Notes under the pieces: generated by a model
Told to the model about the DNA's origin: nothing
Databases searched by the model: none
The model's input: only the letters and a program-made list of their open reading frames with translations
Assembly (NCBI RefSeq): GCF_023204835.1
Contig: NZ_CP096270.1
Span: 2,472,907 to 2,496,906, forward strand
Direction: 5' to 3'
Source of the DNA: Salinarchaeum laminariae
Lineage (GTDB): Archaea > Halobacteriota > Halobacteria > Halobacteriales > Salinarchaeaceae
Length of the DNA: 24,000 nucleotides
Program-made: the position numbers and the translations under genes
Part shown: positions 11,002-23,799 of the stretch, one piece after another
Position numbering within the stretch: position 1 is the stretch's first letter
How the letters are laid out: each line of letters begins with the position of its first letter

Positions 11002-11170
11002 GGCCCAAGGCGAGTCCCACTCCGTGGCCAGACTGTCGTCCACACCGGTTCAGATCGAGCAGTTTCCTCGGAGTTTGGCGCGCTCGAATCGGGCGCGATA
11101 CCGTGCCCTGAACCCTCCCCCGCTCGCCGCCACCAGACGCCCTTAGTGTCCAGACGGCGTTCGAAGTATC

Positions 11171-11842
11171 ATGAGCGATCCCCACGGAGAAGCGGACGTC
11201 GTGACGGCGGGCGCGGACCTCGAGGACGCGTCTATCGCCGTCGTAGCGGTCCACGGTCGCGGTGCCACGGCACGCAGCGTCGTCCAACTGGTCGAACAGG
11301 CGGCCAAGCGCAGTGGCGCCGACGAGCCCGCAGTTCTCGCCCCACAGGCGACCAGAAACACCTGGTACCCGAACTCGTTTCTGGCGCCGATCGACGCCAA
11401 CGAGCCCCACCTCACGAGCGCCCTGGACCTGCTCGGACGCGTCGTCGATCGTGCAGCCGACGCCGTCGGCCGCGACCACGTGATCCTCCTCGGGTTCTCA
11501 CAGGGCGCCTGCCTCTCCAGCGAGTTCCTCGCTCGGAACCCCGCCAGCTACGGTGGGCTGGCTGGACTCTCTGGCGGACGAATCGGTCCGGAGGGTATCG
11601 AGTGGGACGAAGAAGCGACGCTGGCGGAGGCCAACGCCGATCTCGACGACACGCCGATCTTCCTCGGCTGTAGCGACGTCGATCCGCACATCCCCGAGGA
11701 TCGCGTCCACGCGACCGCGGAGTCCCTGAACACCCTCGGTGGGGACGTAACCGTCGAGATCTACCTGGGAATGGGCCATACGGTCAACGATGACGAACTC
11801 GACCACGTCGGACGACTGCTGAAGGGCGCTGGTGCCGACTGA
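11171..11842 (+). CDS. alpha/beta hydrolase, phospholipase/carboxylesterase family
   Basis: 223 aa. It has the nucleophile elbow 'GFSQGA', a later 'CSDVDPHIP' (Asp) and 'GMGHTV' (His). This order is typical of the Abhydrolase_2 / carboxylesterase fold. Confidence 0.75.
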   Translation: MSDPHGEADVVTAGADLEDASIAVVAVHGRGATARSVVQLVEQAAKRSGADEPAVLAPQATRNTWYPNSFLAPIDANEPHLTSALDLLGRVVDRAADAVGRDHVILLGFSQGACLSSEFLARNPASYGGLAGLSGGRIGPEGIEWDEEATLAEANADLDDTPIFLGCSDVDPHIPEDRVHATAESLNTLGGDVTVEIYLGMGHTVNDDELDHVGRLLKGAGAD

Positions 11843-12039
11843 GGGCACGCATGATCTCGTTACTCTCGACACGGCTGGAGTTACCGCTCACGTCGTGGAG
11901 GATCGCAGGCTGCGCGGAGATGGACGATCGGCTCGTTACCGAGGATCCCGTCGTGCGGAGCGACTGGAATGGTGGCGTTGTCCCAGGGTTCGGGACTACT
12001 ATTTAACGGCGCCGAACCCCCCGATCCAGACGAAACCCG

Positions 12040-12864
12040 ATGTCGACAGCAACCAATCCCATGGCGGCGGCGTTCGAACTGCAACGACGGTCGATCGAGT
12101 TCGGGGAACGACTGTTCGAGCAGCTGCTCACGGCACAGCGAGACACCATGCAGACGACGATGCACAATGGATTCGCGATGCAGCGAGAAGCCCAGGAGCA
12201 GGGAGCCGAACTCGCTCGGCGACTCTTTCACGCGCAGACGGACGCGGTCCAGGCCACGGTGAACGGCGACGAGTTCCGCGCGATCGTCGACCGCCAGTTC
12301 GAAGCCTACGACGACGAGGGCGCTGCAGCGATGGAGGCGTTCGAAAACGCGTTCCTCGACGCGTTCGAGGACCTCACCGCTCAGCAGCGCGATCTTGTCG
12401 TCGAATCAGTCGATTCGGCCTTAGACGCCCACGCTACCGTCGAAAAGCAGGCCATCGAAAGCGCCGGTCGGACTCGTGACGTCGCCAAGACAGCCCAGCG
12501 GCAGGGCGAGGAGTTTGCATCAGAGACGGTGACAGCAACCGAACAGGGGCTGGAGGCTGCGGACGAGGGGGGCGCCGTCCATGGACAGACCCGCGGTGCG
12601 CAGCAGGCCAGAACGACGCATCACGATGACGCACAGAACGACAGCGGTCACGCACGACAGGAAGGAGGGCATACGCAACAAGAGACGATCGAGCAGCTCG
12701 AAGTGATCGACGGACTCGGCCCGACGTACGCTGAACGGCTCTACGAGGGCGGCATTCACTCGATGACGGAACTCGCAGACGCAGCTGCGGAGACGATCGC
12801 GGACGAAGCTGACGTCGCGACGAGCCGAGCCGAGGAGTGGATCGAGGTGGCCCAGTCCACGTAG
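12040..12864 (+). CDS. hypothetical helical protein with C-terminal helix-hairpin-helix (DUF4332-like) motif
   Basis: 274 aa with an ATG start. The N-terminal half is helical and Q/E/A-rich, followed by a His/Gln-rich linker (TTHHDDAQNDSGHARQEGGHTQQE). The C-terminal 'VIDGLGPTYAERLYEGGIHSMTELA' is an HhH-type pattern. A TATTTAA box lies at 12000-12006, 34-40 nt upstream. Confidence 0.6.
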   Translation: MSTATNPMAAAFELQRRSIEFGERLFEQLLTAQRDTMQTTMHNGFAMQREAQEQGAELARRLFHAQTDAVQATVNGDEFRAIVDRQFEAYDDEGAAAMEAFENAFLDAFEDLTAQQRDLVVESVDSALDAHATVEKQAIESAGRTRDVAKTAQRQGEEFASETVTATEQGLEAADEGGAVHGQTRGAQQARTTHHDDAQNDSGHARQEGGHTQQETIEQLEVIDGLGPTYAERLYEGGIHSMTELADAAAETIADEADVATSRAEEWIEVAQST

Positions 12865-12886
12865 TGACTGGCGCAGGCGGCAGCCG

Positions 12887-13543
12887 TTACTGATCGCCGC
12901 CGAACTCGCGGTCGTTTTGAATCTTCGAGGCCTGCGGACCGCTCTGACCCTGGTACTTCGAGCCACGCTCCTTGCCGTAGGGCCGTTCCGCCGCCGAGCT
13001 GAGTTTGGTGAAGGTCAGCTGGGAGATTCGCATGTCCGGCGTCAATGCCACGGGTGCAGTGCCGAGATTCGACAGTTCGAGCGTTATCTGGCCCTCGTAT
13101 CCAGGATCGACGATGCCCGCGGTCGCGTGGACGACGATCGCAAGGCGCCCGAGAGAGGACCGGCCCTCGACGTGTGCGATGAGGTCGTCGGGGATCGCGA
13201 CCCGCTCCTTCGTCGTCGCGAGCACGAAATCTCCCGGGTGTAAAATGAACTCGTCGTCGATGGTATCGGTCTGCTCGTCGGTCTCGTCGGCGACGTCCTG
13301 GAGCGTTTTCTGGCCCGATCCGCTGGAGCCGGGAATCGTCGTTCGCTCGGTGTAGTCCGCGGCCACCGATCCCTGATCCGGTCGGATACAGGGAATGTTC
13401 GACTGCCGGAAGGTGAGGAACTCACGGCCCAGGCGCATGTCGACGCTCGCCGGCTGAATCTGCATGTCGGGGTCGTCGAGCGGCTCGATCAGGAGTTCGC
13501 CGTCCTGTAGCCGACGACGGATGTCCCGGTCCGAGAGGATCAT
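12887..13543 (-). CDS. dcd: dCTP deaminase
   Basis: The ATG at 13543 gives [24 protein letters not shown]...[10 protein letters not shown] and '...[36 protein letters not shown]', the dCTP deaminase/dUTPase-fold signatures. The track start at 13642 adds 33 non-homologous aa. An acidic insertion ([27 protein letters not shown]) sits in the middle. Confidence 0.88.
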
Positions 13544-13634
13544 ACCTGTCGTCTGCGCGGCGGTCGGCGTAAATGGTGCGGTCTGGCGCGGTTTTGGCCA
13601 ACCGTCGGCGGCGGCTGGATCGAGTGGCCTGGCA

Positions 13635-14501
13635 CTATACACTCATCAAGAGTGTGATCACCCAGAAGACGGCGGCGACGACCCCGGCCTTCTGTCTGTC
13701 GAGATCGTGCAGCCCGCGCAATCCACCGTACCAGACTGCGGCCTGCCAGGTCGTCCCGACGACCGCCAACACGAGGAGGATCGGCTCGACCGATGCCAGT
13801 GCGGCCTCGATCGCCGCTTGCGTCGTTTCTGGATCCTCTAACGTTAGATCCTCGGATCGGAGTGCGTACGCTATCACGGCCACCGTCGGGAGCGTCGCAA
13901 CCGCAGACGGAACCCCGCTCCAGGCTGCGATCGCGAACGTGTCGCTCATGTCAGCTACGCCATCGGCGACCTTCGCGCCGACGTGCAACAGAATGGCTCC
14001 GACGGCCCACGCGAGCATCCAGCCGATGAAGGCGTAGACGGCGACCTCGTTGAATGCCTCCCGAACCATCGGCCCAGGGTCGCGCTCGACCGTCGCAGGT
14101 TCGTCACACGGATCGTGGCCCTCCGGTCCACTTGGGAACGATCCGTCGTTTATCTCACAGAACTGATCGCCCGGGTAGGCGGGGTTATCGACCGTGACGG
14201 TCTCGGAAAACTGCGAGGCGAACTCCACGCCGAGCGCGTAGACCGCGATCGCCAGCAGGAGAGCCGACCCAACCGCGACGCCGACCGCGACCGCGGGGGA
14301 ACGGGCCCACCTGGGCGCGTCCGAGAAGAACGTGACCGGACGGTGGAACGGCGTCGGCGGAAGCACGTTTCCAGCAATCACGGCGCGCACCAAGTGTTTG
14401 GTGCTTCTCGTTGTCGTCGGAATGAAGTGGGTCAGAGTGGAAAGGATCGGATCCTGGGGGTCGTAGCCACCCGTCTGAATTCGCCCTGTCCCTATCGCCA
14501 A
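13635..14501 (-). CDS. Yip1-domain-like polytopic membrane protein
   Basis: 288-aa ORF whose only upstream start is the TTG at 14501, so the start is uncertain. A TM helix follows '[12 protein letters not shown]', then a soluble loop and about four C-terminal TM helices. This matches the haloarchaeal Yip1-family proteins I recognise. Confidence 0.55.
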
Positions 14502-14890
14502 GCCGACGATCCGCCACCGGTGACGCTGTCGTTCGCTTTCGTCAGCGACGAAGATGTCGGCGACGACGGGCTACGGGCGGTGGCGATGCGAAGACCCTCC
14601 GGAACGCCCAGATTCCGACTGTCGAGTGTGCGCTGAGCACCGACACCGTCCACGCCGTGGACGAGTACACGACAATCGACGCACTCGTCGGCAACGGCAC
14701 GATCAACGCGAGACTCCCGGTGATCTGGAACGCCGCGGTCGGCATGGTCTATCCCGTTTGCCGCGTCAAGCTGAGTTCGTTCTGACTACCTGGGTGAGGG
14801 GGTAGAGTGTGGCCGAAGCTGTACAGTGGGCCTACGGGGTGCAGAATGATGGAGGGGTAGAACGGGTTCGGTGTGTAGATTACCACAATC

Positions 14891-14914
14891 TTGGAACTGA
14901 CGCACAATATTAAG
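14891..14914 (+). promoter_or_regulatory. 24-nt conserved motif copy 1 (TTGGAACTGACGCACAATATTAAG), 31 nt upstream of the TusA-like ATG
   Basis: 19 of 24 positions are identical to 21770-21793. It contains the CGCACAA core and an A/T-rich 3' half at TATA-box distance from the ATG. Confidence 0.5.
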
Positions 14915-14944: not shown

Positions 14945-15187
14945 ATGCCGAGTCCAGACATCGATCCGGCGACGATCGTGGATGCACGGGGAGCAAGCTG
15001 CCCGGGACCCCTGATGGACCTGATTGGGGCGATCCGTGGCATCGACTCGGAAGCCGTCGTCAAGCTTCTGAGCGACAACGAGCAGTCGCTGACCGACGTG
15101 CCGGAGTGGGCCGAAGAGTCCGGCAACGAGGTGCTCGAGGTCGAGGGGGCCGAGGACCACTACGCGATCTACGTACAGAAAGCATGA
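14945..15187 (+). CDS. TusA-like sulfur-carrier protein (SirA/YedF/YeeD family)
   Basis: The ATG at 14945 gives MPSPDIDPATIVDARGASCPGPLMDLIGAIRG..., with the CPxP active-site motif. The track start at 14891 is a TTG. The stop TGA (15185-15187) overlaps the next ATG (15184-15186) as ATGA. Confidence 0.8.
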   Translation: MPSPDIDPATIVDARGASCPGPLMDLIGAIRGIDSEAVVKLLSDNEQSLTDVPEWAEESGNEVLEVEGAEDHYAIYVQKA

Positions 15188-16329
15188 CCGAGCACGTCGT
15201 CATCGTCGGCGCGGGGACCGGGGGGACCGTCCTCGCCAACGACCTCGCCGATCGACTCGAACGGGAGATCGACGCTGGTGACGTCGAGGTCACCCTCTAC
15301 AACGACGATCCCGACCACGTCTACAAACCGGTCTGGCTGTACGTCCCCTTCGGACTCCGCGAACCCGAGGACGGCCGGCGGGCCCTCTCGGACCTCGTGG
15401 ACGACCGGATCGACCTCCGGATCGACCGGATCACCGACCTGGACAGCGACGCGAAAGAACTGCGGACTCGCGACGGCGCCGGAACGGTGCGCTACGACCA
15501 CCTCGTGCTCGCGACCGGCTCGACGCTCGCGCCAGAGACCGTGCCGGGGCTCGCGGAGGCCGGGCACGACTTCTACAGCGAGGACGGGGCCGAGGCGCTC
15601 CGCGAGGACCTCCTCGCCTTCGAGGAGGGGCGGGTCGTCCTCAGCGTCGTCGGGTCGCCACACATGTGCCCAGCGGCGCCCCTGGAGTTCGCGTTCATGG
15701 TCGACGACTGGTTCCGGAAGCGTGGGCTGCGCGACGACGTCGAGGTCGTCTACACCTACCCGATCCAGCGCGTCCACGGGAACCCGCACATCGCCGAGTG
15801 GGCCGAGCCGATCATGAAAGAGCGCGGGATCGAGGTGCACACGTTCGTCAACGCCGAGGAGATCGATCCCGACGCGGAGACCATCGAGACGATGGAGGGG
15901 GACTCCATCGACTACGACCTTCTCGTCACGATCCCACCCCATGCAGGCGTGGACCTGATCGCCGAGGCGGGCCTCGGCGACGAGGGTTGGGTCGACGTCG
16001 ACAGCCACACGCTCGAAGCCACGGCCGCCGAGGACGTCTACGCACTCGGCGACACCGCCGACACTGGCGTCCCGAAAGCGGGCAGCGTTGCCCACTACCA
16101 GGCCGGCGTCGTCGCCCAGCGGATCGCCAGCGACGTCAGGGGCCGCCCGGCGACGGCGACCTACGACGGCAAGACGCTGTGCTTCATCGAGACCGGCATG
16201 GACGAGGCCAGCTTCGTCGAGTTCGACTACGAGACCCCGCCGTCGCCCGCGCCGCCCTCGACGGCGCTGCACTGGTCGAAGCTGTCGTACAACGAGTCCT
16301 ACTGGCTCACCGCGCGGGGGCTACTGTAG
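15184..16329 (+). CDS. sulfide:quinone oxidoreductase-like FAD-dependent oxidoreductase
   Basis: The ATG at 15184 gives MTEHVVIVGAGTGGTVLAN (FAD GxGxxG). 'HVYKPVWLYVPFG', 'PHMCPAAPLEFAF' and 'KTLCFIETG' place two Cys where SQR-type flavoproteins carry redox cysteines. 'YALGDTA' is the second FAD motif. The track start at 15106 is a GTG inside the TusA gene. Confidence 0.72.
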   Translation: MTEHVVIVGAGTGGTVLANDLADRLEREIDAGDVEVTLYNDDPDHVYKPVWLYVPFGLREPEDGRRALSDLVDDRIDLRIDRITDLDSDAKELRTRDGAGTVRYDHLVLATGSTLAPETVPGLAEAGHDFYSEDGAEALREDLLAFEEGRVVLSVVGSPHMCPAAPLEFAFMVDDWFRKRGLRDDVEVVYTYPIQRVHGNPHIAEWAEPIMKERGIEVHTFVNAEEIDPDAETIETMEGDSIDYDLLVTIPPHAGVDLIAEAGLGDEGWVDVDSHTLEATAAEDVYALGDTADTGVPKAGSVAHYQAGVVAQRIASDVRGRPATATYDGKTLCFIETGMDEASFVEFDYETPPSPAPPSTALHWSKLSYNESYWLTARGLL

Positions 16330-16332
16330 ATC

Positions 16333-17001
16333 ATGACCGAGAACGATCCAGAAATCGCCGACGGCGGCGTCGCGGAAGGCGCCGAGGCAGGCCAAAGCGA
16401 CGCCCTCGAAGCCGCGATCGCGGAGAACCCCGAGGCGGTCGCCGAGTTCGTCCGCCGGCTCGACGCCGTCAACGAACTGCTCGACGTCGTCGCGCTCGGC
16501 GAGAGCGCGATGACCGACGAGATGGTCACCGAACTCGCCGGAACGGGCGCCACGCTCGCGGAGTCCGCCGACGGCCTCGCGACTGAGGAAACCGTCGCAC
16601 TCGCCGAAACCGTCGGCGACAACGGCGAGGAACTCGGGGACGCGCTGGAGACAATGCTCGAACTCCAGCGGGCGGGCACGCTCGACGACCTCGCGGAGCT
16701 GGCGTCGATCGCCTCGCTGGCCACCGCCGCGCTCGACGACGAGATGGTCCGCTCGCTCGCGGCGATGGGCGGATCGCTGGGCGAGGTCGCCGACACGGCT
16801 GCGGCGCCGGACACCAGAGACGGCATCGAGACGATGCTCGAGGGGATCGGCGAGGCCCAGCGCGCGGAGCCCGAACCCGTCGGCGCGATCGGGATGGCGA
16901 GGGCGATGCGCGACCCCGAAGTGAAGTACGGGCTGGGCTACGTGCTAGCCATGGCACGAGCGATCGGTCGAGCACGCGCAGCGGACGCATCGTCGCAATG
17001 A
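16333..17001 (+). CDS. DUF1641-domain protein (frequent partner of SQR/NDH-2-like flavoproteins)
   Basis: The ORF starts 3 nt after the SQR stop. It is an acidic helical protein ending in 'GAIGMARAMRDPEVKYGLGYVLAMARAIG', the DUF1641 C-terminal signature as I recall it. Its stop overlaps the next ATG (ATGA at 16998-17001). Confidence 0.72.
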   Translation: MTENDPEIADGGVAEGAEAGQSDALEAAIAENPEAVAEFVRRLDAVNELLDVVALGESAMTDEMVTELAGTGATLAESADGLATEETVALAETVGDNGEELGDALETMLELQRAGTLDDLAELASIASLATAALDDEMVRSLAAMGGSLGEVADTAAAPDTRDGIETMLEGIGEAQRAEPEPVGAIGMARAMRDPEVKYGLGYVLAMARAIGRARAADASSQ

Positions 17002-18149
17002 CGTCGCGAGATCCACGCGGGACGGGCGAGGCGATGACGCCGCTGGAGTTGCGCGCCGACGTCCCCGCGCTGCAGGATGGCGCGTACTTCAACTTCGGCG
17101 CGCACGGCCCGAGCCCGCGGTTCGTCGTCGAGGCAGCCGAAGCTTTCATCGAGAGCCACGAGTACGAGTCGCCGATCGTCGACGACCCCTACGAGACGGC
17201 GTTCGACACGTTCGAGATGGTCCGCGAGACGGTCGCCGACTTCGTCGGTGCCGAGGCCGAGGAGATCGCGCTCACGGAGAGTACCACCGCCGGCATCAAC
17301 GCGATCGCCGGGGCGATCGACTGGGAGCCATGGGACGTGGTGGTCCGCACCGACCTCGAACACCCCGCCGGGATCCTCGCGTGGCAGCGCCTCGAACGCG
17401 AGGGCGTCGAGGTCCGGGTCGTGGAGACCACCGACGGCCGCGTCGATCCCGAGGAGTTCGCCGAGGCCGTCGAGGGCGCGGACCTCGCCTGCTTCAGCGC
17501 GCTCACCTGGACCCACGGCACCCGCCTGCCGGTCGCGGAGCTGGTCGACATCGCCAACGACGCCGGCGCGTTCACGCTGGTCGACGCGGTGCAGGTCCCC
17601 GGCCAGACCGAACTGGACGTTTCGGAGTGGGGCGCCGACGCCGTCGCAGCCGCTGGCCACAAGTGGCTCCTCGGACTCTGGGGCGGCGGCTTCCTCTACG
17701 TCGACCGCGAGGTCGCCGAGGAGCTTGAACCCCGGACCGTCGGCTACCGGAGCGTCGAGAAGCCCACCGCCGAGCCGTTCGCGTTCGAACCCGGCGCGAA
17801 GCGATTCGAGGTCGGCTCCGCGAACCCGGCGTCACACGTCGCATTGGCGGAAGCGATCGAAGCGATCGAAGAGGTCGGCGTGGATCGAATGGAAGAGCGG
17901 ACGCTCGACCTGGCGGGTCGACTTGCCGACGGGGTGCCGGAGGAGCAGCTATTGAGTCCTGCCGAGCCGGAGTCAGGGTTGGTGACGATCGACGTTCCCG
18001 ATCCCGAGGCGACGGTGGAGCGGCTCGCGGACGAGGGGATCGTCGTTCGACCGCTGCCATTTCCGGACGCTATTCGGGCGTCGGTTCACGCAGTGAACAC
18101 GGCGGAGGAGGTTGATCGGTTGTTGGGCGGGCTGGAGGATGAGTACTAA
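16998..18149 (+). CDS. class-V aminotransferase-fold PLP enzyme (cysteine-desulfurase-like but lacking the catalytic Cys)
   Basis: 383 aa. It has 'TESTTAGIN', 'LVDAVQ', the PLP lysine in 'AAGHKWLLG' and a C-terminal 'IRASVHAVNTAEEVDRL', as in NifS/SufS/CsdA-type enzymes. There is no Cys anywhere C-terminal of the PLP Lys; the only Cys is in 'DLACFSAL'. The alternative start M13 is at 17034. Confidence 0.78.
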   Translation: MTSRDPRGTGEAMTPLELRADVPALQDGAYFNFGAHGPSPRFVVEAAEAFIESHEYESPIVDDPYETAFDTFEMVRETVADFVGAEAEEIALTESTTAGINAIAGAIDWEPWDVVVRTDLEHPAGILAWQRLEREGVEVRVVETTDGRVDPEEFAEAVEGADLACFSALTWTHGTRLPVAELVDIANDAGAFTLVDAVQVPGQTELDVSEWGADAVAAAGHKWLLGLWGGGFLYVDREVAEELEPRTVGYRSVEKPTAEPFAFEPGAKRFEVGSANPASHVALAEAIEAIEEVGVDRMEERTLDLAGRLADGVPEEQLLSPAEPESGLVTIDVPDPEATVERLADEGIVVRPLPFPDAIRASVHAVNTAEEVDRLLGGLEDEY

Positions 18150-18167
18150 GCGCTTTCGCGCCGTTTT
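18150..18167 (+). terminator. short GC hairpin (GCGC-TTTC-GCGC) followed by a TTTT run directly after the stop codon
   Basis: Seen directly as 'taa gcgctttcgcgc cg tttt ag'. Oligo-T tracts are the usual archaeal termination signal. The hairpin is short, so confidence is modest. Confidence 0.35.
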
Positions 18168-18422
18168 AGTGGCTCTAATTGGCTTTCAGTCGCTGACGGT
18201 CCTACCGGATCGTACTGAATCGCAGGTGCGTATCTAACACGCCATCCGTTTTCATATGAGGTATGTCGGTGAATCCTTTTGGAGGGGAAACGAGGTCAGA
18301 TCTTCTCATGAGTATTGCTCATTCCTCGCCAACCAGTTTGCTTCAACTGTTTCCTGTTGGGAGGGGGTCGATTGGCTTCAAGGGATCAGATTAATGTATT
18401 TCAAAGGGCCAATCATACTGAA

Positions 18423-19187
18423 ATGCTCCCCTTCGACGTTACCTGGGGTCAGATTTCAATAGCTAGCGTAGCGGGAGCTATTCTGATATTTGCTGTGAAT
18501 AAACGATGGGATCTTTGGTCGCGTAGAAGAGAACGTAAACGTCAACAAACTCTCAAATGGCACCGGGAGGTGCAAGAGCTGTTTGCTGAGGTGATCTCAG
18601 TGGGCCGTCGTATGCGAACGTCTCGGACACGCGACGAAGAACTGATTCAAGAACTGATCCCAACAACTATTAAACTCGATTCGAAGGTAAATTCTCTGCC
18701 TATTTGGGTGCGATTGAGGGTGAGTAGCGAGGTTCAAAATCGTGTCATCGCAGCAGCCGGGATGGCGTACCATTTGGCCCATCTGCCCCAACCAGACCGA
18801 AATGAAGATTCGGTCGCTGGAATGATGTATCATTTATACAGGGTTGCAGACTTGGTGGACGCTGACACGGATGTCGAGGTTGGAGAGCTGATTGAACTGA
18901 TTGGTGGATTAGATCCTTCCGGTACTCCTGATCTGTCGGAAGAGAAAGCCGATCAGATTTTGCAAGAATTCGAAGACGAATCACAGCGGCGAATGGAAAC
19001 TTGGGAAGAGATGACTGTTGACGAATTGATGGACCTCCCATGGGAGAAAGTCGACCAAATTCTTTCCGAGCGCGATCGAGTGAAGTTGATTAGACAATGT
19101 ATTGAAGCCTATTACGAACAGGCACTAATTGAAAAACCACGGGAAGCTCGGAACGCGATACAGGAATCGGAGCAAGCATATGCGTGA
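18423..19187 (+). CDS. orphan N-terminally membrane-anchored helical protein
   Basis: The ATG at 18423 gives MLPFDVTWGQISIASVAGAILIFAVNKRWDLWSRRRERKRQ... This is one TM helix followed by a positive patch and then about 200 aa of acidic helical sequence. The track start at 18315 is a TTG. A TATA-like 'ttaatgtatttc' lies at 18391-18402. I recognise no family. Confidence 0.55.
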   Translation: MLPFDVTWGQISIASVAGAILIFAVNKRWDLWSRRRERKRQQTLKWHREVQELFAEVISVGRRMRTSRTRDEELIQELIPTTIKLDSKVNSLPIWVRLRVSSEVQNRVIAAAGMAYHLAHLPQPDRNEDSVAGMMYHLYRVADLVDADTDVEVGELIELIGGLDPSGTPDLSEEKADQILQEFEDESQRRMETWEEMTVDELMDLPWEKVDQILSERDRVKLIRQCIEAYYEQALIEKPREARNAIQESEQAYA

Positions 19188-19448
19188 ACTGAATCGGTGA
19201 CACTAGTCCTTTCGTATATGGTTTCTCAATGCCCGCCACTCCTCAACGAGATTCCTCGTACGATCAAGTAGAATCTCCGAGGATTTGATCAGAATGGATG
19301 AATTGAGGATCAGCACGAATATTCGCCAACTCCAAAGGCAGATGATCAATCAGGTTTGACTGATTCATTTGTTGGACTCGGTTTTTGAAGTTTCAGAGGC
19401 CATCAGGGCCGATAATCTAGTAAAATGCCACGGTTTCCCTGGCATTGT

Positions 19449-20603
19449 TCAGGAAGCGAAGTCTATTTCTTGATCTGAATAGTTGAGAGCTGTGTCAAGA
19501 GTCATCGACAAGAATAGTAATGATATTGTAGCGATATTTTCATCGAAGAACGCGACGGGATCGCCATGCATGATCGCATTTCTATGGGCATAAAATGATT
19601 CAAGATTATTGATAAAATTTCCAGTGGAAACCCCATACCATTCAACGTGAAGTTCAGCCAGTTTGTTACGTTTGGTGTCCCATTTATAAACTGGGTCTCC
19701 AAATCGGTTCATGTAATCAGGTGATACATTTTCCTGCTCACAAAGCCAATGCATTATGCCGTCCTGAACACTGATAAAGCTAAAAACCGGTGTTAAAAAC
19801 CTTCCATCCCTGAACTCTTCGATTCCCCTTTCTAACCGGTTGTAATAAGGGTCTAATGGATGTTCCTGAATATTAGCCATGCCATTTAGTACTTCGTCAA
19901 GATACTGAGTCCCAGCAGCCTGAGCAACAGAATTTAATTGGATAATTTCTGGATCGTAATTAGAAGGTTCTTCAAAGTTAGATATCCCCTCTTCAATGGC
20001 CTCCCGGACCTCTCTGGCAAACTCTTGAAGTTGTTGAATAAGCGGTCTAAACTGATCTATCATGTCTTGAAACATCGACGTCAAGTTGGGCGCGACAGGT
20101 TGGATTGATTCAGCAACTTGCCTACTAACCTGATTTACGGTTTCATGAATGGCATCGACCGACTGTACAACACCCTCTGGATATTTTACGCCTTCAAATA
20201 TCGAGACCGATCTCAAATCTATCTCCCGATTTTCTTCTGCCAGTGTCATCCCCACAAATTCACGTATTGACATCCTGACCTCCTCGGCTGAAGATTCTGA
20301 TTCATCCACAATTTCGTCGAAAGAATTCTGGCCGCCATAGAACTGGACTCCACTAAATATTGCCTCCCAGGTAACTCTAGCTGTTGGATAATTCACTAAT
20401 TTCACATATTGGATAACAAGCTCCCTTGTGTCAGAACGACTAATATCGAACTCTCTGGCAGCCTCTGATAGAGTCGAATCACGGTAAAACTCTCCAACCT
20501 CCTTGATTTGCTCGCATTGGTCGAACGAAATTTCATCGCGGAGCTCCTCCCTCTTCTCAACCTCCTCTTCAACAATCTCACGTAAACGACTCACATCCGA
20601 CAT
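19449..20603 (-). CDS. orphan protein with N-terminal HTH-like segment and C-terminal HEPN-like (R-x4-H) domain
   Basis: 384 aa with an ATG at 20603. Residues ~43-66, 'STLSEAAREFDISRSDTRELVIQY', look like a helix-turn-helix. The C-terminal ~130 aa are helical and carry 'FYAHRNAIMHGD'. R341 is codon 19581-19583 and H346 is codon 19566-19568, both checked on the DNA. A final hydrophobic helix follows. This is the RNxxxH(G) arrangement of HEPN RNase domains. Confidence 0.6.
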   Translation of the reverse strand: MSDVSRLREIVEEEVEKREELRDEISFDQCEQIKEVGEFYRDSTLSEAAREFDISRSDTRELVIQYVKLVNYPTARVTWEAIFSGVQFYGGQNSFDEIVDESESSAEEVRMSIREFVGMTLAEENREIDLRSVSIFEGVKYPEGVVQSVDAIHETVNQVSRQVAESIQPVAPNLTSMFQDMIDQFRPLIQQLQEFAREVREAIEEGISNFEEPSNYDPEIIQLNSVAQAAGTQYLDEVLNGMANIQEHPLDPYYNRLERGIEEFRDGRFLTPVFSFISVQDGIMHWLCEQENVSPDYMNRFGDPVYKWDTKRNKLAELHVEWYGVSTGNFINNLESFYAHRNAIMHGDPVAFFDENIATISLLFLSMTLDTALNYSDQEIDFAS

Positions 20604-20627
20604 CGTCCCGAAAACGCACTGTGAAGG

Positions 20628-20633
20628 TTAAAA
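20628..20633 (-). promoter_or_regulatory. TATA-like TTTTAA box 25-30 nt upstream of the HEPN-like gene ATG
   Basis: The reverse strand reads 'ggattttaaccttcacagtgcgttttcgggacgATG'. The spacing fits a leaderless archaeal transcript. Confidence 0.35.
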
Positions 20634-20862
20634 TCCAATGGGTCCCTGTAGAACTAATTGAGGCCATTGTCATTGCTATTTACTATTCAAATAATAATCA
20701 TAAAGCTCCTTCTCAGCGAGTATCACAAATCCGTCCAAATGACATCGGTCTTCAACGGCGATCGCAAGACGGCTGCATCTGATCAGCAGGGGCGCCGCTC
20801 GCGGGCCAAATCGCCGAGAGAAGTAAACGGTGGGGCTGGTCAGGCAACGTGTACAGCGCGAT

Positions 20863-21498
20863 TCAGACCAGCAACTGCACGTCCGACTCGGCCATGTGCT
20901 CGAGCGCGGTCGCCGCGCCGACTCCCACTGTGACGTCGTCGTAGAAATCGTCCTCGTCGTAGTCCATCAGCTCGATCGTCATCTGGCAGGCCTGCATCTC
21001 GACGCCCTGCTCGAGGGACACTTCGATGAGTTCCTCGATCGTCGCGGTGTTGTTGTCGTCGATCTTCTTCGCCATCATCTTCGTCGTGACCCGGTCCATG
21101 CCCGGGAGCGCGGCGAGCGCGTTCGGGACGGGCATGTTCGGGTTGCCGACGGAGGACAGCTGGAGGTTCGAGGACTTCTCCTCGTGGAGGATGTCCAGGC
21201 CCCAGAACGTGTGGAAGACCACGACGTCCCAGCCGAAGGCGGCCGCGGTGCTCGCGAGGATCAGCGGCGGGTACGCCATGTCGAGCGTGCCCTTCGTCGC
21301 GATGATCGTCATCTTCATCGGCCCGTCGTCGACCTCGCGCTCGAGCGTCGTGACCGTATCCTCCAGTTCCTCGATGCGGGCCTGTAGCTCCGCCTCGGTC
21401 TGTGGGACGTCCGCCCCGTCCGCCGTCGGGGCCTCGTCGCCACTCGCGGCGGCCTTCTCCTCGGGCGTCTCCTCCGTCTCGGCTGCGTCGGTGCTCAT
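20863..21498 (-). CDS. DsrE/DsrF-like sulfur-relay protein (COG2210-type) with a 60-aa acidic coiled-coil N-terminal extension
   Basis: The core 'MKMTIIATKGTLDMAYPPLILASTAAAFGWDVVVFHTFWGLDIL' and 'VEMQACQMTIELM' (conserved Cys) match DsrE-like/COG2210 proteins. The ATG at 21498 directly abuts the TusA stop (21499-21501). The extension is GC3-rich. Confidence 0.78.
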   Translation of the reverse strand: MSTDAAETEETPEEKAAASGDEAPTADGADVPQTEAELQARIEELEDTVTTLEREVDDGPMKMTIIATKGTLDMAYPPLILASTAAAFGWDVVVFHTFWGLDILHEEKSSNLQLSSVGNPNMPVPNALAALPGMDRVTTKMMAKKIDDNNTATIEELIEVSLEQGVEMQACQMTIELMDYDEDDFYDDVTVGVGAATALEHMAESDVQLLV

Positions 21499-21744
21499 CT
21501 ATGCGGTCTTCTCCACGTAGTGTTTGTAGAGGTCGCCGTCCTCGACCTGGTCGAGGAGCGAGACGCCCTTTGTCCCACTCGCCCACCCGTCGATGTCGCT
21601 CATGCTGCCGGAGTCCGTCGAGAGTACCTCGAGGACCTCACCCTCGGCGAGGTCGTCGATCGCGGACTTCGTCTTGACGACCGGCATTGGACACGATGCT
21701 CCCTTCACGTCGAGCGTCTCAGTAACGTCGATTGCGTCTGTCAT
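21499..21744 (-). CDS. TusA-like sulfur-carrier protein (second copy)
   Basis: The ATG at 21744 gives MTDAIDVTETLDVKGASCPMPVVKTKSAIDDL..., with the CPxP motif. The track start at 21792 is a TTG with an AT-rich, atypical N-terminus. Confidence 0.8.
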   Translation of the reverse strand: MTDAIDVTETLDVKGASCPMPVVKTKSAIDDLAEGEVLEVLSTDSGSMSDIDGWASGTKGVSLLDQVEDGDLYKHYVEKTA

Positions 21745-21769
21745 CGGTGAATCACTCCGTTGGTTTGTA

Positions 21770-21793
21770 TTGGAGTTAACGCACAATACCAAG
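21770..21793 (+). promoter_or_regulatory. 24-nt conserved motif copy 2 (TTGGAGTTAACGCACAATACCAAG), 26 nt upstream of the second TusA ATG, on the opposite strand relative to that gene
   Basis: 19 of 24 positions are identical to 14891-14914. It lies in the 250-bp divergent intergenic region between the TusA/DsrE and rhodanese-PDO operons. Confidence 0.5.
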
Positions 21794-21818
21794 GCCGATC
21801 ACTAAAGGATATCGGTTC

Positions 21819-21839
21819 TTGTGCGATCTGCGAACTACT
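21819..21839 (+). promoter_or_regulatory. repeat B: TTGTGCGAT-CTG-CGAACTACT
   Basis: It is identical to 21926-21946 at 18 of 21 positions; only the central 3 nt differ. Its TTGTGCG core is the reverse complement of the CGCACAA core of the 24-nt motif. Confidence 0.5.
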
Positions 21840-21925
21840 GCCCCGTACGAGATATCTAATAATTCTTGCGTATGGGCGTAGTGGCTCATCTGCAACGATC
21901 TCGCCGCGTCTCGCCGATTGCTGTA

Positions 21926-21946
21926 TTGTGCGATTGCCGAACTACT
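21926..21946 (+). promoter_or_regulatory. repeat C: TTGTGCGAT-TGC-CGAACTACT
   Basis: This is a direct repeat of 21819-21839, 107 bp downstream. It ends about 49 nt upstream of the rhodanese-PDO ATG. Confidence 0.5.
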
Positions 21947-21994
21947 ATGCAAACTCTTATGTGCTCGCCTCTGGAACGTGGAGGTACACGACAC

Positions 21995-23242
21995 ATGAAC
22001 GCTGACGACTTCCCCACGCCCGACGTGGCGGTCGAATCGGTCGAACCGGATCAGCTCAAGGCACGCGTCGACGCCGGTGAGGACCTCACCATTCTCGACG
22101 CCCGGATGAGCTCGGATTACGCCGAGTGGCGCATCGACGGCGACGGCGTCGAGTCGATCAACGTCCCCTACTTCGAGTTCCTCGAGGACGAGATCGACGA
22201 GACCGTCTTCGACCAGCTCCCCGAGGACGAGGAGATCGTCGCCCTGTGTGCGAAGGGCGGCGCCAGCGAGTACGTCGCGGGCCGTCTCATCGAGGCAGGC
22301 TACGACGTCGTCCACCTGGAGGACGGGATGAACGGCTGGGCGCGCATCTACGAGCAAGTCGAGGTCAACGACTACGACGGCGCGGGCACGCTCTACCAGT
22401 ACCAGCGGCCCTCCTCGGGCTGTCTCGGCTACCTCCTCGTCGAGGGCGACGAGGCCGCGGTGATCGATCCCCTGCGGGCGTTCACCGATCGATACCTCGA
22501 GGACGCCGAGGCGTTCGGCGCCGACCTCCTGTACGCGATCGACACCCACATTCACGCGGATCACATTTCGGGGGTCCGCGAACTCCACGAGTTCGCGGGC
22601 TCGTCAGGAGCGGAGCGAACTGACGGTGTTCGTGATCTGGACGACGAAGGAGTCGAGGGCGTCATCCCCGCCGCAGCGGTCGACCGCGGCGTCGCGTACG
22701 CCGACGACCTGACGCAGGCCGCGGACGGCGACGAGTTCGCCGTCGGCGACGCGACGATCGAGACGGTCTCCACGCCCGGCCACACGACCGGGATGACCTC
22801 CTACCTCGTCGACGACAGCCTGCTCGCGACCGGCGACGGCCTGTTCATCGAGAGCGTCGCGCGCCCCGACCTCGAAGAGGGCGACGACGGTGCGCCCGAC
22901 GCTGCCCGGATGCTCTACGAGTCGCTCCAGGAGCGCGTCCTCACGCTGCCCGACGAGACGCTCGTCGGCGGCGCGCACTTCAGCGACGCGGCAGTGCCGG
23001 CCGACGACGGGACCTACACCGCTCCGATCGGTGACCTGAAAGAGCGCATGGACGCGCTGTCGATGGACGAGGCGGAGTTCGTGGAGCTGATCCTCTCGGA
23101 CATGCCGCCCCGTCCCGCGAACTACGAGTCGATCATCGCGACGAACCTCGGCCAGCAAACCGTCGACGACGAGAAAGCGTTCACGCTCGAACTCGGTCCG
23201 AACAACTGCGCGGCGAGCCAGGAGTCGCTCGCGGGGGACTAA
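21995..23242 (+). CDS. rhodanese-domain / metallo-beta-lactamase-fold persulfide dioxygenase (ETHE1-like) fusion protein
   Basis: The ATG at 21995 is used; the track start at 21866 is a TTG. The N-terminal rhodanese has the active-site loop 'LCAKGGASEY'. The MBL domain has 'THIHADH', 'STPGHTTGM', 'ATGDGLF' and 'GGAHF', the metal ligands and spacing of ETHE1-type persulfide dioxygenases. Confidence 0.8.
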   Translation: MNADDFPTPDVAVESVEPDQLKARVDAGEDLTILDARMSSDYAEWRIDGDGVESINVPYFEFLEDEIDETVFDQLPEDEEIVALCAKGGASEYVAGRLIEAGYDVVHLEDGMNGWARIYEQVEVNDYDGAGTLYQYQRPSSGCLGYLLVEGDEAAVIDPLRAFTDRYLEDAEAFGADLLYAIDTHIHADHISGVRELHEFAGSSGAERTDGVRDLDDEGVEGVIPAAAVDRGVAYADDLTQAADGDEFAVGDATIETVSTPGHTTGMTSYLVDDSLLATGDGLFIESVARPDLEEGDDGAPDAARMLYESLQERVLTLPDETLVGGAHFSDAAVPADDGTYTAPIGDLKERMDALSMDEAEFVELILSDMPPRPANYESIIATNLGQQTVDDEKAFTLELGPNNCAASQESLAGD

Positions 23243-23253
23243 CTCGGTAGCCA

Positions 23254-23799
23254 ATGCTGTCCGACCTCATCACCGTAGCGCTTGCGGCCGACCTGGTTGC
23301 CGCCACCAGCGCGGTCGACCTCGCGCCCGCTTCGATCGCATCCGACCCGTTTCCCAACGGGATTAGTCGGTACGCCGTCGGCGGGTTGCTCGTCGGCCTC
23401 GGAACCGCGGTCATCTACCTCGGGACCGGCATCAGCGCCGGCGCGAGCACGTTCCTCGAGTCGACGCTGTCCTACGTGTCCGGCGAGTCTCGCTTCCAGC
23501 GGTACGTCGCCTCGCGTGACTGGCGGCTCCTGTTCACGGGTAGCATCGTCCTGGGCGCGGCCGTCTACGCCGTGACGATCCAGGGCGGCGCCTGGACGAC
23601 CGACGTCCACCCGTGGCGGCTCCTGGTCGGCGGCATCTTCGTCGGCGTGGGCACCCGCGTCGGCAAGGGCTGTACCTCCGGACACGGCGTCTGCGGGGTC
23701 GGCTCTGCGTCGAAGACGTCGATCGTTGGCGTCGTGACGTTCCTGCTGGTCGCGATCGTGACAGCGCAACTGGTCGCAGCAGCCGGGGTGACGCCGTAA
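23254..23799 (+). CDS. YeeE/YedE-family sulfur-compound (thiosulfate-type) transporter subunit
   Basis: A 181-aa polytopic membrane protein with the conserved 'GKGCTSGHGVCG' motif of the YeeE/YedE (PF04143) family. It starts 12 nt after the PDO stop. Confidence 0.8.
   Translation: MLSDLITVALAADLVAATSAVDLAPASIASDPFPNGISRYAVGGLLVGLGTAVIYLGTGISAGASTFLESTLSYVSGESRFQRYVASRDWRLLFTGSIVLGAAVYAVTIQGGAWTTDVHPWRLLVGGIFVGVGTRVGKGCTSGHGVCGVGSASKTSIVGVVTFLLVAIVTAQLVAAAGVTP

What the first reader, a model, noticed from the sequence alone, without database searches (positions are those of the whole stretch)
21745..21994. Dense array of related repeats in the divergent sulfur promoter (candidate operator set)
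The 250-bp region between TusA/DsrE (minus) and rhodanese-PDO (plus) contains three related elements. The first is TTGGAGTTAACGCACAATACCAAG (21770-21793). The other two are direct repeats: TTGTGCGAT-CTG-CGAACTACT (21819-21839) and TTGTGCGAT-TGC-CGAACTACT (21926-21946). These two are 18/21 identical and 107 bp apart.

The TTGTGCG core of the two direct repeats is the reverse complement of the CGCACAA core in the first element. The first element and repeat B therefore form an inverted pair about 30 bp apart.

This looks like multiple binding sites for one transcription factor controlling both divergent operons. No obvious regulator gene (for example a CstR/SqrR/BigR analogue, ArsR or TrmB) is present in the window.
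Basis: seen in the sequence. Interest (0 to 1): 0.62.

Follow-up and report, generated by a model that had tools for sequence, protein, structure and literature searches.

The report
Conserved operator sites of haloarchaeal sulfur regulon
The three repeats between the divergent sulfur genes are conserved binding sites for one transcription factor, and the likely binder is an uncharacterised cysteine-bearing regulator encoded 8 kb away, which makes sulfide or persulfide sensing in salt-loving archaea directly testable.

Summary
The two 21-nt direct repeats (18/21 identical, 107 bp apart) and the inverted first element are real, and the 21-mer occurs nowhere else in the 3.17-Mb genome.

Comparison with 17 related haloarchaeal loci shows each element is one copy of a 23-bp imperfect palindrome, GTATTG(TG)-N-CCAAtAC (6-N11-6):
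- O1 (21767-21789) lies over the predicted tusA transcription start.
- O2 (21816-21838) abuts the tusA BRE/TATA.
- O3 (21923-21945) abuts the rhodanese-PDO BRE/TATA.

A matrix built only from other genera puts its five best genome-wide hits inside 16 kb. These are O1, O3, and sites before a second tusA-SQR operon, a Usp gene and a thioredoxin gene. Weaker sites precede TauE and a 133-aa TrmB-family regulator.

That regulator has invariant Cys15 and Cys21. It is probably the HVO_1360 paralogue of the thiol switch OxsR. It is syntenic with the cluster and carries the motif in its own promoter in at least 10 relatives.

The regulator lies just outside the window. Binding, signal and sign of regulation remain inferred. 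Other first readers of this scan noted the same motif and regulator on other haloarchaeal genomes.

The parts
21767..21789 (.). O1: perfect 6-N11-6 palindrome GTATTG-GAGTTAACGCA-CAATAC. It lies 23-45 nt upstream of the tusA ATG, between the predicted tusA TATA box and the Shine-Dalgarno sequence. That places it at about -13..+10 of the inferred transcription start.
   Evidence: It is the top genome-wide hit (34.1 bits) of a matrix built without this genus. It is present in all 18 orthologous loci, with TTG and CAAT invariant.
21816..21838 (+). It is a weaker variant site that abuts the upstream side of the tusA BRE/TATA.
   Evidence: It scores 24.2 bits with the full matrix but falls outside the top 25 (<13.2 bits) with the O1/O3-only matrix. 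An equivalent site is present in 12 of 18 orthologous loci, always centred 49 bp from O1.
21923..21945 (+). It ends 3 nt before the BRE-like element of the rhodanese-PDO promoter and lies 50-72 nt upstream of the PDO ATG.
   Evidence: It scores 27.8 bits with the leave-out matrix, third in the genome. It is conserved in all 18 loci, and alignable sequence begins exactly at its left half.
21802..21814 (-). Predicted tusA-dsrE core promoter, read on the minus strand as CGATA (BRE-like) - TCC - TTTAG (TATA-like).
   Evidence: The block TAAAAG..T..CGGT is invariant or nearly so in alignment A1. Assigning it as BRE/TATA rests on the published haloarchaeal promoter consensus, recalled from my own knowledge. 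No transcription-start data are available.
21947..21963 (+). Predicted rhodanese-PDO core promoter: ATGCAAA (BRE-like) - CT - CTTATGTG (TATA-like), 32-48 nt before the ATG. This implies a very short leader.
   Evidence: The block ATGCAAAnnCTT(A/T)(T/A)GTG is conserved in all 18 loci. The assignment is inferred.
21499..21744 (-). tusA (81 aa), first gene of the leftward operon.
   Evidence: Pfam TusA, 70.9 bits.
20863..21498 (-). dsrE2-like sulfur carrier gene (211 aa), downstream of tusA.
   Evidence: Pfam DrsE_2, 170.6 bits. NCBIfam DsrE2 scores 160 bits, below that model's cut-off.
21995..23242 (+). Rhodanese / metallo-beta-lactamase fusion (persulfide-dioxygenase type, 415 aa), first gene of the rightward operon.
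   Evidence: Pfam Rhodanese plus Lactamase_B. Weak NCBIfam match to the bifunctional sulfurtransferase/dioxygenase Blh.
23254..23799 (+). First YeeE/YedE-type sulfur-transport half-protein. The second half runs off the window.
   Evidence: Pfam Sulf_transp.
14888..14910 (.). Fourth in-window site of the same motif, ATCTTG-GAACTGACGCA-CAATAT. It lies 35-57 nt upstream of a second tusA gene and overlaps the TATA-like ATATTAAG.
   Evidence: 24.1 bits, fifth-best hit in the genome with the leave-out matrix. An equivalent site lies upstream of tusA2-sqr in G040, G025 and G011.
14945..18149 (+). Operon tusA2 (14945-15187), type III SQR-like flavoprotein (15106-16329), DUF1641 (16333-17001) and class V aminotransferase (16998-18149). 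It is a predicted member of the same regulon.
   Evidence: Pfam. NCBIfam SQR_III scores 337.8 bits, below the cut-off of that selenoprotein-specific model.

Best explanation
O1, O2 and O3 are operators for one dimeric winged-helix transcription factor. The most likely factor is a 133-aa TrmB-family protein encoded 8 kb downstream (genome 2503030-2503431, window-equivalent 30124-30525).

This protein is the 2-Cys paralogue of the Haloferax thiol switch OxsR. Cys15 and Cys21 are invariant and sit in the N-terminal helix. It is probably orthologous to HVO_1360.

Each operator is a 23-bp imperfect palindrome, GTATTG(TG)-N-CCAAtAC.

**Proposed mechanism**
- In its DNA-binding state the factor sits over the tusA transcription start (O1).
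- It also sits directly against the BRE of both divergent promoters (O2 and O3).
- At the other promoters it sits on or against BRE/TATA. These precede tusA2-SQR, Usp, DUF7512-TauE, thioredoxin and its own gene.
- Bound there, it keeps TBP, TFB and RNA polymerase off the DNA.
- Modification of the cysteine pair by sulfane sulfur or another thiol oxidant changes DNA binding. The whole sulfide-to-sulfite detoxification set is then induced together.

**What is shown**
- The sites, their conservation and their positions.
- The confinement of the motif to this cluster.
- The linkage of the regulator gene with the cluster and its self-site.

**What is inferred**
- That this protein is the binder (about 0.75 to 0.8).
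- The core-promoter assignments.
- Repression rather than activation.
- The nature of the signal.
For: **The cis elements**
- The repeats are real and exceed chance.
- The divergent tusA-dsrE / rhodanese-PDO arrangement is kept in 18 loci from many genera.
- O1 and O3 are conserved in sequence and position in all 18 loci, and O2 in 12. The sequence between them is unalignable.

**A local regulon**
- A matrix was built from 32 sites of 16 other genera. Its five best hits in the 3.17-Mb genome all lie within 2487793-2503598.
- Those five hits score 34.1, 29.3, 27.8, 26.2 and 24.1 bits. The next hit scores 17.3, and a Markov-simulated genome reaches at most 15.4.
- The flanking genes are tusA2/SQR/DUF1641, tusA/dsrE, rhodanese-PDO/YeeE, Usp, DUF7512-TauE and thioredoxin.
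- The same promoters carry the site in relatives.
- Paralogous PDO loci carry no site.

**The regulator**
- It matches Pfam TrmB at 59.4 bits.
- It is the only transcription-factor gene found among the GC3-selected ORFs tested in the 37 kb examined.
- An orthologue is present in 35 of 40 relatives. It lies within 1 to 11 kb of the PDO cluster in at least 10 genomes.
- A site at about -60..-36 of its own start codon is present in at least 10 relatives. In this genome the equivalent site is weak, at 13.6 to 14.0 bits.
- The CEGLLEC motif is invariant in 21 orthologues and in 25 database homologues.
- Both cysteines lie in the N-terminal helix of the model, next to a confident wHTH.
- The closest solved structures are 3r0a and the Lrs14-like AbfR2, 6cmv.
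- The single-Cys paralogue in this genome aligns its cysteine with Cys21, in the way OxsR C24 would.
- OxsR needs C24 for DNA binding. It activates or represses depending on where its motif lies relative to BRE/TATA (PMC9426492).
- That paper describes HVO_1360 as a small, uncharacterised paralogue with C15 and C21.
Against: - There is no binding, expression or transcription-start data.
- The BRE/TATA and start-site assignments come from the consensus only.
- O2 and O3 lie upstream of BRE, at about -40..-64. That is where OxsR's activating motif lies (-50..-74 from the start codon). Repression from these two sites is therefore uncertain.
- The self-site in this genome is weak.
- Four relatives (G021, G028, G039, G017) showed no site above threshold at the regulator's own promoter.
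- In Haloferax volcanii, HVO_1360 is reported as co-transcribed with a quorum-sensing two-component gene. Its context there differs.
- Orthology with HVO_1360 rests on matching size, family and cysteine positions. It was not checked by sequence comparison.
- OxsR binds DNA better when oxidised. That is the opposite polarity to bacterial persulfide repressors.
Confidence: 0.5

Rival explanations
1. The sites and the regulator are the same, but the factor has two roles, as OxsR does. O2 and O3 lie just upstream of BRE and act as upstream activating sites for tusA and PDO. O1 and the sites overlapping BRE/TATA at other promoters repress. The thiol state would decide which sites are filled.
For: - O2 and O3 are placed symmetrically, at about -40..-62 and -42..-64 of the inferred starts.
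- O3 lies at -50..-72 from the PDO ATG. That nearly matches the -50..-74 region whose deletion abolishes OxsR-dependent activation of hvo_1043.
- OxsR activates when its motif is 5' of BRE/TATA and represses when it is 3'.
Against: - A state that activates PDO would at the same time repress trx, tauE, tusA2-SQR and the regulator gene. These genes belong to one pathway.
- O2 is missing in 6 of 18 loci.
- The O3 core ends only 3 nt from the BRE-like element, close enough to clash with TFB.
Confidence: 0.25
2. The three elements are true operators, but they are bound by a different factor encoded elsewhere. This could be the single-Cys OxsR orthologue at genome 668979-669305 or an unrelated regulator. 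The linked TrmB-like gene would then be only another target.
For: - No binding data exist.
- The self-site in this genome is weak, at 13.6 to 14.0 bits.
- A target gene would also carry the motif in its promoter.
- An OxsR-like paralogue exists in the genome.
Against: - OxsR's described motif is CG-rich, CGGnCGnGCG. It is unlike the AT-rich TATTG motif here.
- The linked regulator is the only transcription-factor gene found in the cluster.
- It stays syntenic with the cluster across families, and the motif is conserved at a fixed place in its own promoter. That is the usual signature of an autoregulated local regulator.
Confidence: 0.15
3. The repeats are not transcription-factor sites. They could be extended core-promoter elements for an alternative TBP or TFB, an RNA hairpin in the tusA leader (O1), or leftovers of a local duplication (O2 and O3).
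For: - The O1 arms could pair as a 6-bp stem in the tusA 5' leader.
- O2 and O3 in this genus share spacer bases (18/21 identical) that are not shared in other genera. This hints at recent copying or gene conversion.
- The promoter-proximal half-sites at trx, tauE and the regulator gene coincide with the BRE position.
Against: - The same 23-bp motif occurs upstream of BRE, on TATA, and downstream of TATA at different promoters. A core promoter element would not do this.
- Most copies lie in untranscribed DNA.
- The half-sites are conserved as sequence, not as pairing.
- Rfam finds nothing in the region.
- O2 and O3 are conserved independently in genera where their spacers differ.
Confidence: 0.05

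Closest known systems
OxsR (HVO_2970) of Haloferax volcanii: a thiol-based, single-domain TrmB-family transcription factor (PMC9426492)
   Same: - Same family (Pfam TrmB PF01978) and same build: a wHTH flanked by an N-terminal and a C-terminal helix.
- The cysteine aligned with OxsR C24 (Cys21 here) lies in the N-terminal helix.
- Sites are placed either 5' of or over BRE/TATA.
- Targets include thioredoxin-type genes.
   Different: - This is a paralogue. The same-genome OxsR-like protein is 24% identical here, and the paper gives 28% between OxsR and HVO_1360.
- It has a second invariant cysteine (Cys15, in a C-x5-C motif).
- Its motif is an AT-rich 6-N11-6 palindrome, not the CG-rich repeat.
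- Its predicted targets are sulfide and persulfide handling genes clustered around it.
- Nothing has been tested experimentally.
Bacterial persulfide-sensing repressors CstR (CsoR fold), and SqrR and BigR (ArsR fold)
   Same: - They are encoded next to sqr / pdo-rhodanese / tusA / dsrE / TauE-type genes.
- Their operators lie in the promoters of those operons, often divergent ones.
- They have a pair of conserved cysteines.
- The logic is the same: one sensor switches on a sulfide-to-sulfite detoxification set.
   Different: - The protein fold is unrelated (TrmB/Lrs14-like wHTH).
- The promoters are archaeal, so the sites are placed relative to BRE/TATA and not to -35/-10.
- The operator sequence is different.
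- Persulfide sensing is not shown here.
SurR of Thermococcales: an archaeal sulfur-response regulator with a CxxC redox switch
   Same: It is an archaeal wHTH factor with a cysteine pair. It ties sulfur availability to transcription, and its sign depends on site position relative to BRE/TATA.
   Different: - SurR has a different domain build and a different motif (GTTn3AAC).
- It controls hydrogenase and sulfur-reduction genes in anaerobic hyperthermophiles. It does not control an SQR/PDO oxidation pathway.
Lrs14/Sta1/AbfR-type small wHTH regulators (PDB 6cmv) and the Methanosarcina mazei protein 3r0a
   Same: These are the closest solved structures by sequence (3r0a E = 1.4e-9) and by fold (TM about 0.65 to 0.77).
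   Different: - Identity is low, at 20 to 23%.
- The NCBIfam Sta1 and Lrs14 models score below their cut-offs.
- Those proteins have no known role in sulfur metabolism.

Membership tests
Transcription-factor operator set in an archaeal divergent promoter | Repeated, related sequence elements that exceed chance. | tested here: met
   2 matches against 0.02 expected in the window. The 21-mer is unique in the genome.
Transcription-factor operator set in an archaeal divergent promoter | Conservation of the elements, but not the DNA around them, in orthologous intergenic regions. | tested here: met
   O1 and O3 are present in 18 of 18 loci and O2 in 12 of 18. The intervening DNA is unalignable.
Transcription-factor operator set in an archaeal divergent promoter | The same motif occurs at other, functionally related promoters and not genome-wide. 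| tested here: met
   The top five hits of the leave-out matrix lie within 16 kb, at sulfur and thiol genes. The same promoters carry it in relatives.
Transcription-factor operator set in an archaeal divergent promoter | Physical binding by a factor, and an effect on transcription. | not testable with these tools
   This needs EMSA or footprinting, ChIP-seq and reporter assays.
OxsR-type thiol-based single-domain TrmB-family factors (arCOG02242), for the candidate binder | Pfam TrmB (PF01978) wHTH as the only domain, in a protein of about 130 aa. | tested here: met
   59.4 bits against a cut-off of 25.6, in a 133-aa protein.
OxsR-type thiol-based single-domain TrmB-family factors (arCOG02242), for the candidate binder | wHTH flanked by N- and C-terminal helices that form the dimer interface. 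| tested here: inconclusive
   The monomer model has helices at 5-22 and 93-125 around a confident wHTH. The closest folds are 3r0a and 6cmv. The N-terminal helix has low confidence, and no dimer was modelled.
OxsR-type thiol-based single-domain TrmB-family factors (arCOG02242), for the candidate binder | A conserved cysteine equivalent to OxsR C24. | tested here: met
   Cys21 is invariant. It aligns with the only cysteine of the same-genome OxsR-like paralogue and with a cysteine of 3r0a.
OxsR-type thiol-based single-domain TrmB-family factors (arCOG02242), for the candidate binder | A CG-rich CGGnCGnGCG binding motif. | tested here: not met
   The motif here is an AT-rich TATTG-N11-CAATA type. 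This fits a paralogue with its own specificity, not OxsR itself.
Persulfide-sensing repressors (CstR, SqrR, BigR) | CsoR-type or ArsR-type fold. | tested here: not met
   The best Pfam, PDB and fold matches are TrmB, Lrs14 and MarR-like wHTH proteins. Of the ArsR-type family only one weak, sub-threshold hit (PF12840 HTH_20, 22.7 bits against a cut-off of 27) appeared.
Persulfide-sensing repressors (CstR, SqrR, BigR) | Two conserved sensing cysteines. | tested here: met
   Cys15 and Cys21 are invariant in all 46 sequences compared. Their chemistry has not been tested.
Persulfide-sensing repressors (CstR, SqrR, BigR) | Genomic and regulatory linkage with sqr, pdo, rhodanese, tusA and sulfite-export genes. 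| tested here: met
Persulfide-sensing repressors (CstR, SqrR, BigR) | Loss of DNA binding on persulfidation or polysulfide bridging. | not testable with these tools
   This needs biochemistry.

The most novel reading that the evidence does not exclude
The array is the core of the first reactive-sulfur-sensing regulon described in haloarchaea.

- It would be run by a 2-Cys OxsR paralogue of the HVO_1360 family. That family was found in 35 of the 40 related haloarchaeal genomes searched and is annotated only generically.
- A TrmB/Lrs14-type fold would thus have been recruited independently to the role that CsoR- and ArsR-fold sensors play in bacteria.
- The exact 49-bp O1-O2 spacing, and the often-kept spacing of about 156 bp between O1 and O3 across unalignable DNA, would reflect a higher-order complex. 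This could be a loop or an oligomer spanning both divergent promoters.
Probability: 0.4. Interest if true: 0.7.

Novelty: new member of a known kind. Interest (0 to 1): 0.5.

Why it matters
Sulfide and persulfide sensing is well worked out in bacteria (CstR, SqrR, BigR, FisR). I found no paper on it for haloarchaea in the library I could search.

This array gives four concrete things to work with:
- **A motif.** A defined 23-bp sequence.
- **A compact predicted regulon.** It comprises SQR, TusA/DsrE, rhodanese-PDO, YeeE, TauE, thioredoxin and Usp.
- **A named candidate sensor.** The family is nearly universal in Halobacteria but carries only generic database names. The OxsR paper mentioned it only as an uncharacterised paralogue.
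- **Direct tests.** Several haloarchaea are genetically tractable, so the prediction can be tested with standard methods.

A positive result would assign a function to a widespread orphan regulator. It would also show how thiol-switch TrmB paralogues divide their targets.

As a sequence feature, though, the array is an ordinary kind of thing: operators in a divergent promoter.

Tried and rejected
- **Mobile or dispersed repeat.** Rejected. The 21-mer occurs nowhere else in the genome.
- **Structured RNA or riboswitch.** Rfam at E <= 1 found nothing in 21600-22100. The middle of the spacer is not conserved.
- **A fourth overlapping site in the PDO promoter.** I considered GATTGC...GCAAAC. The half-site spacing is N13, not N11, and the left part is not conserved in other genera, so I dropped it.
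- **A regulator inside the window.** None was found among the GC3-selected ORFs of 1-14500. These are an aldo-keto reductase, DUF5789, a GTPase, a heliorhodopsin, a Hel308-type helicase, a hydrolase, a dCTP deaminase, Yip1 and an HhH protein.
- **Paralogous PDO loci (41 to 53% identity) as further regulon members.** They carry no sites.
- **Regulator presence or absence against counts of the perfect palindrome per genome.** The pattern is too strict to discriminate. The enrichment does hold: 57 sites against 11 for the reversed control across 41 genomes.
I used database homologues instead.
- **Literature on HVO_1360, arCOG02242 and haloarchaeal persulfide regulators.** I found only the OxsR paper and one incidental mention.
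Full report
**Setting**

The window is bases 2472907-2496906 of a single-contig, 3.17-Mb, 65% G+C genome. Proteins are acidic and relatives are haloarchaea. The same-genus relative is Salinarchaeum sp. Harcht-Bsk1.

The finding lies between two diverging operons:
- tusA (21499-21744, minus strand), followed by a dsrE2-like gene (20863-21498).
- A rhodanese / metallo-beta-lactamase fusion of the persulfide-dioxygenase type (ATG at 21995, plus strand), followed by split YeeE/YedE genes.

**Observation**

- The repeat finder gives the direct pair 21819-21839 / 21926-21946 at 18/21 identity and 107 bp apart.
- It also gives a perfect 10-nt inverted repeat between 21780-21789 and 21923-21932.
- The degenerate 21-mer has 2 matches in the window against 0.02 expected.
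- No other match with fewer than 3 mismatches exists in the whole genome.

**What the elements are**

A search of 40 related genomes found orthologues of the PDO fusion at 58 to 92% identity. In 17 further loci from many genera the same divergent tusA partner is present.

I oriented the 18 intergenic regions alike and found short blocks conserved inside otherwise unalignable DNA. Reading from tusA towards PDO, these are:
- **O1.** On the tusA-sense strand it reads rTATTGTG...TAGCTCCAATAC. TTG and CAAT are invariant.
- **The block TAAAAG..T..CGGT.** On the tusA strand this reads as a BRE-like CGAnA plus a TATA-like TTTTA.
- **O2.** TTnTTGTg-N-AACnAC, present in 12 of the 18 loci.
- **A variable stretch.**
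- **O3.** GTATTGt-N-GAAnTAC.
- **The block ATGCAAAnnCTT(A/T)(T/A)GTG.** This lies 32 to 48 nt before the PDO ATG.

- O1 = 21767-21789, GTATTG-N11-CAATAC, a perfect palindrome.
- O2 = 21816-21838, TTCTTG-N11-AACTAC.
- O3 = 21923-21945, GTATTG-N11-AACTAC.

The TTGTGCG shared by all three in this genome is the inner edge of the left half-site (TTGTG) plus two spacer bases. O2 and O3 are identical in their spacers only in this genus.

**Positions**

These positions rest on the haloarchaeal promoter consensus as I recall it: BRE about -38..-34, and TATA beginning about -30. They do not rest on data.
- The tusA start would fall near 21776, and the PDO start near 21987.
- O1 then covers about -13..+10 of tusA.
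- O2 covers about -40..-62 of tusA.
- O3 covers about -42..-64 of PDO.

O2 and O3 therefore sit symmetrically against the two BREs.

Spacing is unusually constant:
- The O1-O2 centre distance is exactly 49 bp in all 12 loci that have O2.
- O2-O3 is 105 to 108 bp in 7 of those 12.
- O1-O3 is 155 to 157 bp in 9 of 18 loci, although the DNA between them does not align.

**A local regulon**

I first built a position matrix from all the orthologous sites and scanned the genome. Its best hits clustered around the locus.

To avoid circularity I rebuilt the matrix from 32 O1 and O3 sites of 16 other genera, using none from this genus. The five best hits in the genome were these:

| Site | Score (bits) |
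|---|---|
| O1 | 34.1 |
| Site before a thioredoxin gene | 29.3 |
| O3 | 27.8 |
| Palindrome before a Usp gene | 26.2 |
| Site at window 14888-14910, before a second tusA gene | 24.1 |

- All five lie within 16 kb.
- The next hit scores 17.3, and a Markov-simulated genome reaches at most 15.4.
- Weaker hits precede a DUF7512-TauE operon (15.1; 19.4 with the full matrix) and a small regulator gene (14.0).
- O2 scores 24.2 with the full matrix but is not among the top 25 of the O1/O3-only matrix. It is a conserved weak variant.

Together the genes make a coherent pathway from sulfide to persulfide to sulfite, followed by export:
- tusA2, a type III SQR-like flavoprotein, DUF1641 and a class V aminotransferase.
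- tusA and dsrE2.
- Rhodanese-PDO and YeeE/YedE.
- Usp.
- DUF7512 and a TauE/SafE sulfite exporter.
- Thioredoxin, followed by a DsbA-like gene.

In relatives the motif recurs at the same promoters. It is absent from paralogous PDO loci. Across 41 genomes the strict palindrome TATTG-N11-CAATA occurs 57 times, against 11 for its reversed control. Many of those copies lie at PDO or regulator loci.

**Candidate binder**

The candidate lies at genome 2503030-2503431, between tauE and trx and 6.1 kb past the window's end. It encodes a 133-aa protein that matches Pfam TrmB at 59.4 bits. It is the only transcription-factor gene I found among the GC3-selected ORFs in the 37 kb examined.

Evidence linking it to the motif:
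- Orthologues at 56 to 93% identity occur in 35 of 40 relatives.
- Orthologues lie 1 to 11 kb from the PDO cluster in at least 10 genomes of different families.
- In at least 10 relatives a motif copy sits at about -60..-36 of the regulator's own start codon, directly against a TTTTA box. In this genome the corresponding sequence is AGAATTGTAGGGACCATGCACAAGT-CTTTTG.

Features of the protein:
- The N-terminal motif DMECEGLLEC(F)HGLK holds Cys15 and Cys21. Both are invariant in 21 orthologues and in 25 database homologues. Cys32 is about 90% conserved.
- An AlphaFold model (mean pLDDT 72) gives helix 5-22, a confident wHTH at 27-90, and a long C-terminal helix.
- The nearest solved structures are the M. 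mazei regulator 3r0a and the Lrs14-like AbfR2.
- Database names are generic.

**Link to OxsR**

The one described relative is OxsR of Haloferax volcanii (PMC9426492).
- OxsR is a single-domain TrmB-family factor. It needs Cys24, at an antiparallel-helix dimer interface, for DNA binding.
- It activates when its CG-rich motif lies 5' of BRE/TATA, and represses when the motif lies 3'.
- The paper mentions an uncharacterised paralogue, HVO_1360. It is 28% identical to OxsR, in the same arCOG, and has C15 and C21.

Size, family and cysteine numbering match the protein here, so orthology is likely. I did not test it by sequence.

This genome also encodes a single-Cys paralogue at 668979-669305. Its cysteine aligns with Cys21, so Cys21 corresponds to OxsR C24 and Cys15 is the extra residue.

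I found no paper that assigns a function to HVO_1360 or that describes a persulfide-responsive regulator in haloarchaea.

**Mechanism**

The following are shown:
- The sites, their conservation and spacing.
- Their restriction to a sulfur and thiol gene cluster.
- The conserved linkage and self-site of the regulator gene.

The following are inferred:
- A homodimer of this regulator binds the 23-mers.
- In most promoters the site overlaps BRE/TATA (tusA2 -57..-35, trx -56..-34, regulator -61..-39, Usp -49..-27 from the ATG) or the start site (O1). This is the usual geometry of archaeal repression by exclusion of TBP, TFB or polymerase.
- The Cys15/Cys21 pair senses sulfane sulfur or another thiol oxidant and changes DNA binding, so the set is induced together.

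The sign at O2 and O3 is the weakest step. Their position upstream of BRE matches OxsR's activating position. A dual activator-repressor model is therefore the main rival. The constant O1-O2 and frequent O1-O3 spacing suggests cooperative or looped binding, but that is speculation.

**Rivals**

- **A different, unlinked factor.** This cannot be excluded without binding data. It is disfavoured by the self-site and synteny, and OxsR's own motif is unlike this one.
- **Non-TF readings (core promoter element, leader hairpin, duplication remnant).** These do not fit. The same motif occurs upstream of, on, and downstream of TATA at different promoters. Rfam finds nothing. O2 and O3 are conserved independently in genera where their spacers differ.

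**Verdict**

- As a class of feature this is ordinary: operators in a divergent promoter.
- Its value lies in making an orphan, widespread 2-Cys TrmB-family regulator, and haloarchaeal sulfide or persulfide sensing, directly testable.

Other first readers of this scan independently noted the same motif and regulator on other haloarchaeal genomes. Those notes are unchecked AI leads and I do not count them as evidence.

Noticed in passing
window 6711-7556 (+): This ORF of 281 aa matches Pfam Heliorhodopsin very strongly (305.8 bits). A heliorhodopsin gene therefore lies in this haloarchaeal chromosome.
   Followed up: no
window 18150-20800: A low-GC islet (0.40 to 0.50 against about 0.65) sits between the tusA2-SQR operon and dsrE. 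Its two ORFs (18315-19187 on the plus strand, 19449-20603 on the minus strand) have no Pfam match. In relatives such as G025 and G011, DUF1641 and dsrE are adjacent. Earlier notes of this scan already treat it as a foreign islet with a HEPN-like gene.
   Followed up: partly
L031 5562-5708 (genome 2501561-2501707): A 48-aa membrane ORF matching Pfam DUF7512 (72 bits) lies between the motif site and tauE. The gap of about 230 bp between site and tauE is kept in relatives. DUF7512-TauE is therefore probably a conserved two-gene operon.
   Followed up: partly
L031 1242-2423 and 2534-4204 (genome 2497241-2500203): A PHO4/PiT-type transporter and a protoglobin-MCP (HemAT-like) transducer lie between the YeeE genes and the Usp gene. 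The PiT gene stays inside the sulfur cluster in G040 and G037. It may carry a sulfur oxyanion rather than phosphate.
   Followed up: no
L036 and L037 (G013 contigs C17 and C9): One relative has two copies of the regulator (83 to 84% identical to the query). It also has two tusA-dsrE loci whose O1 sites share an identical 21-nt core (TATTGTGCGATAGCTCCAATA). Part of the cluster has been duplicated together with its operator.
   Followed up: no
genome 1842348-1843520 (outside the window): This second, distant rhodanese-PDO paralogue (42% identity, with one in-frame TGA in the match) shows no motif hit nearby.
   Followed up: no
window 21899-21916: There is a tandem TCTCGCCG-nn-TCTCGCCG in the non-conserved middle of the spacer. 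It is not conserved in relatives and is probably without meaning.
   Followed up: partly
L053 5917-5941 and L054 2728-2752: In G013 and G040 a further motif copy lies between DUF1641 and the class V aminotransferase gene. The aminotransferase may therefore have its own regulated promoter there. In this genome the two genes overlap (16998-17001) and no such site exists.
   Followed up: no
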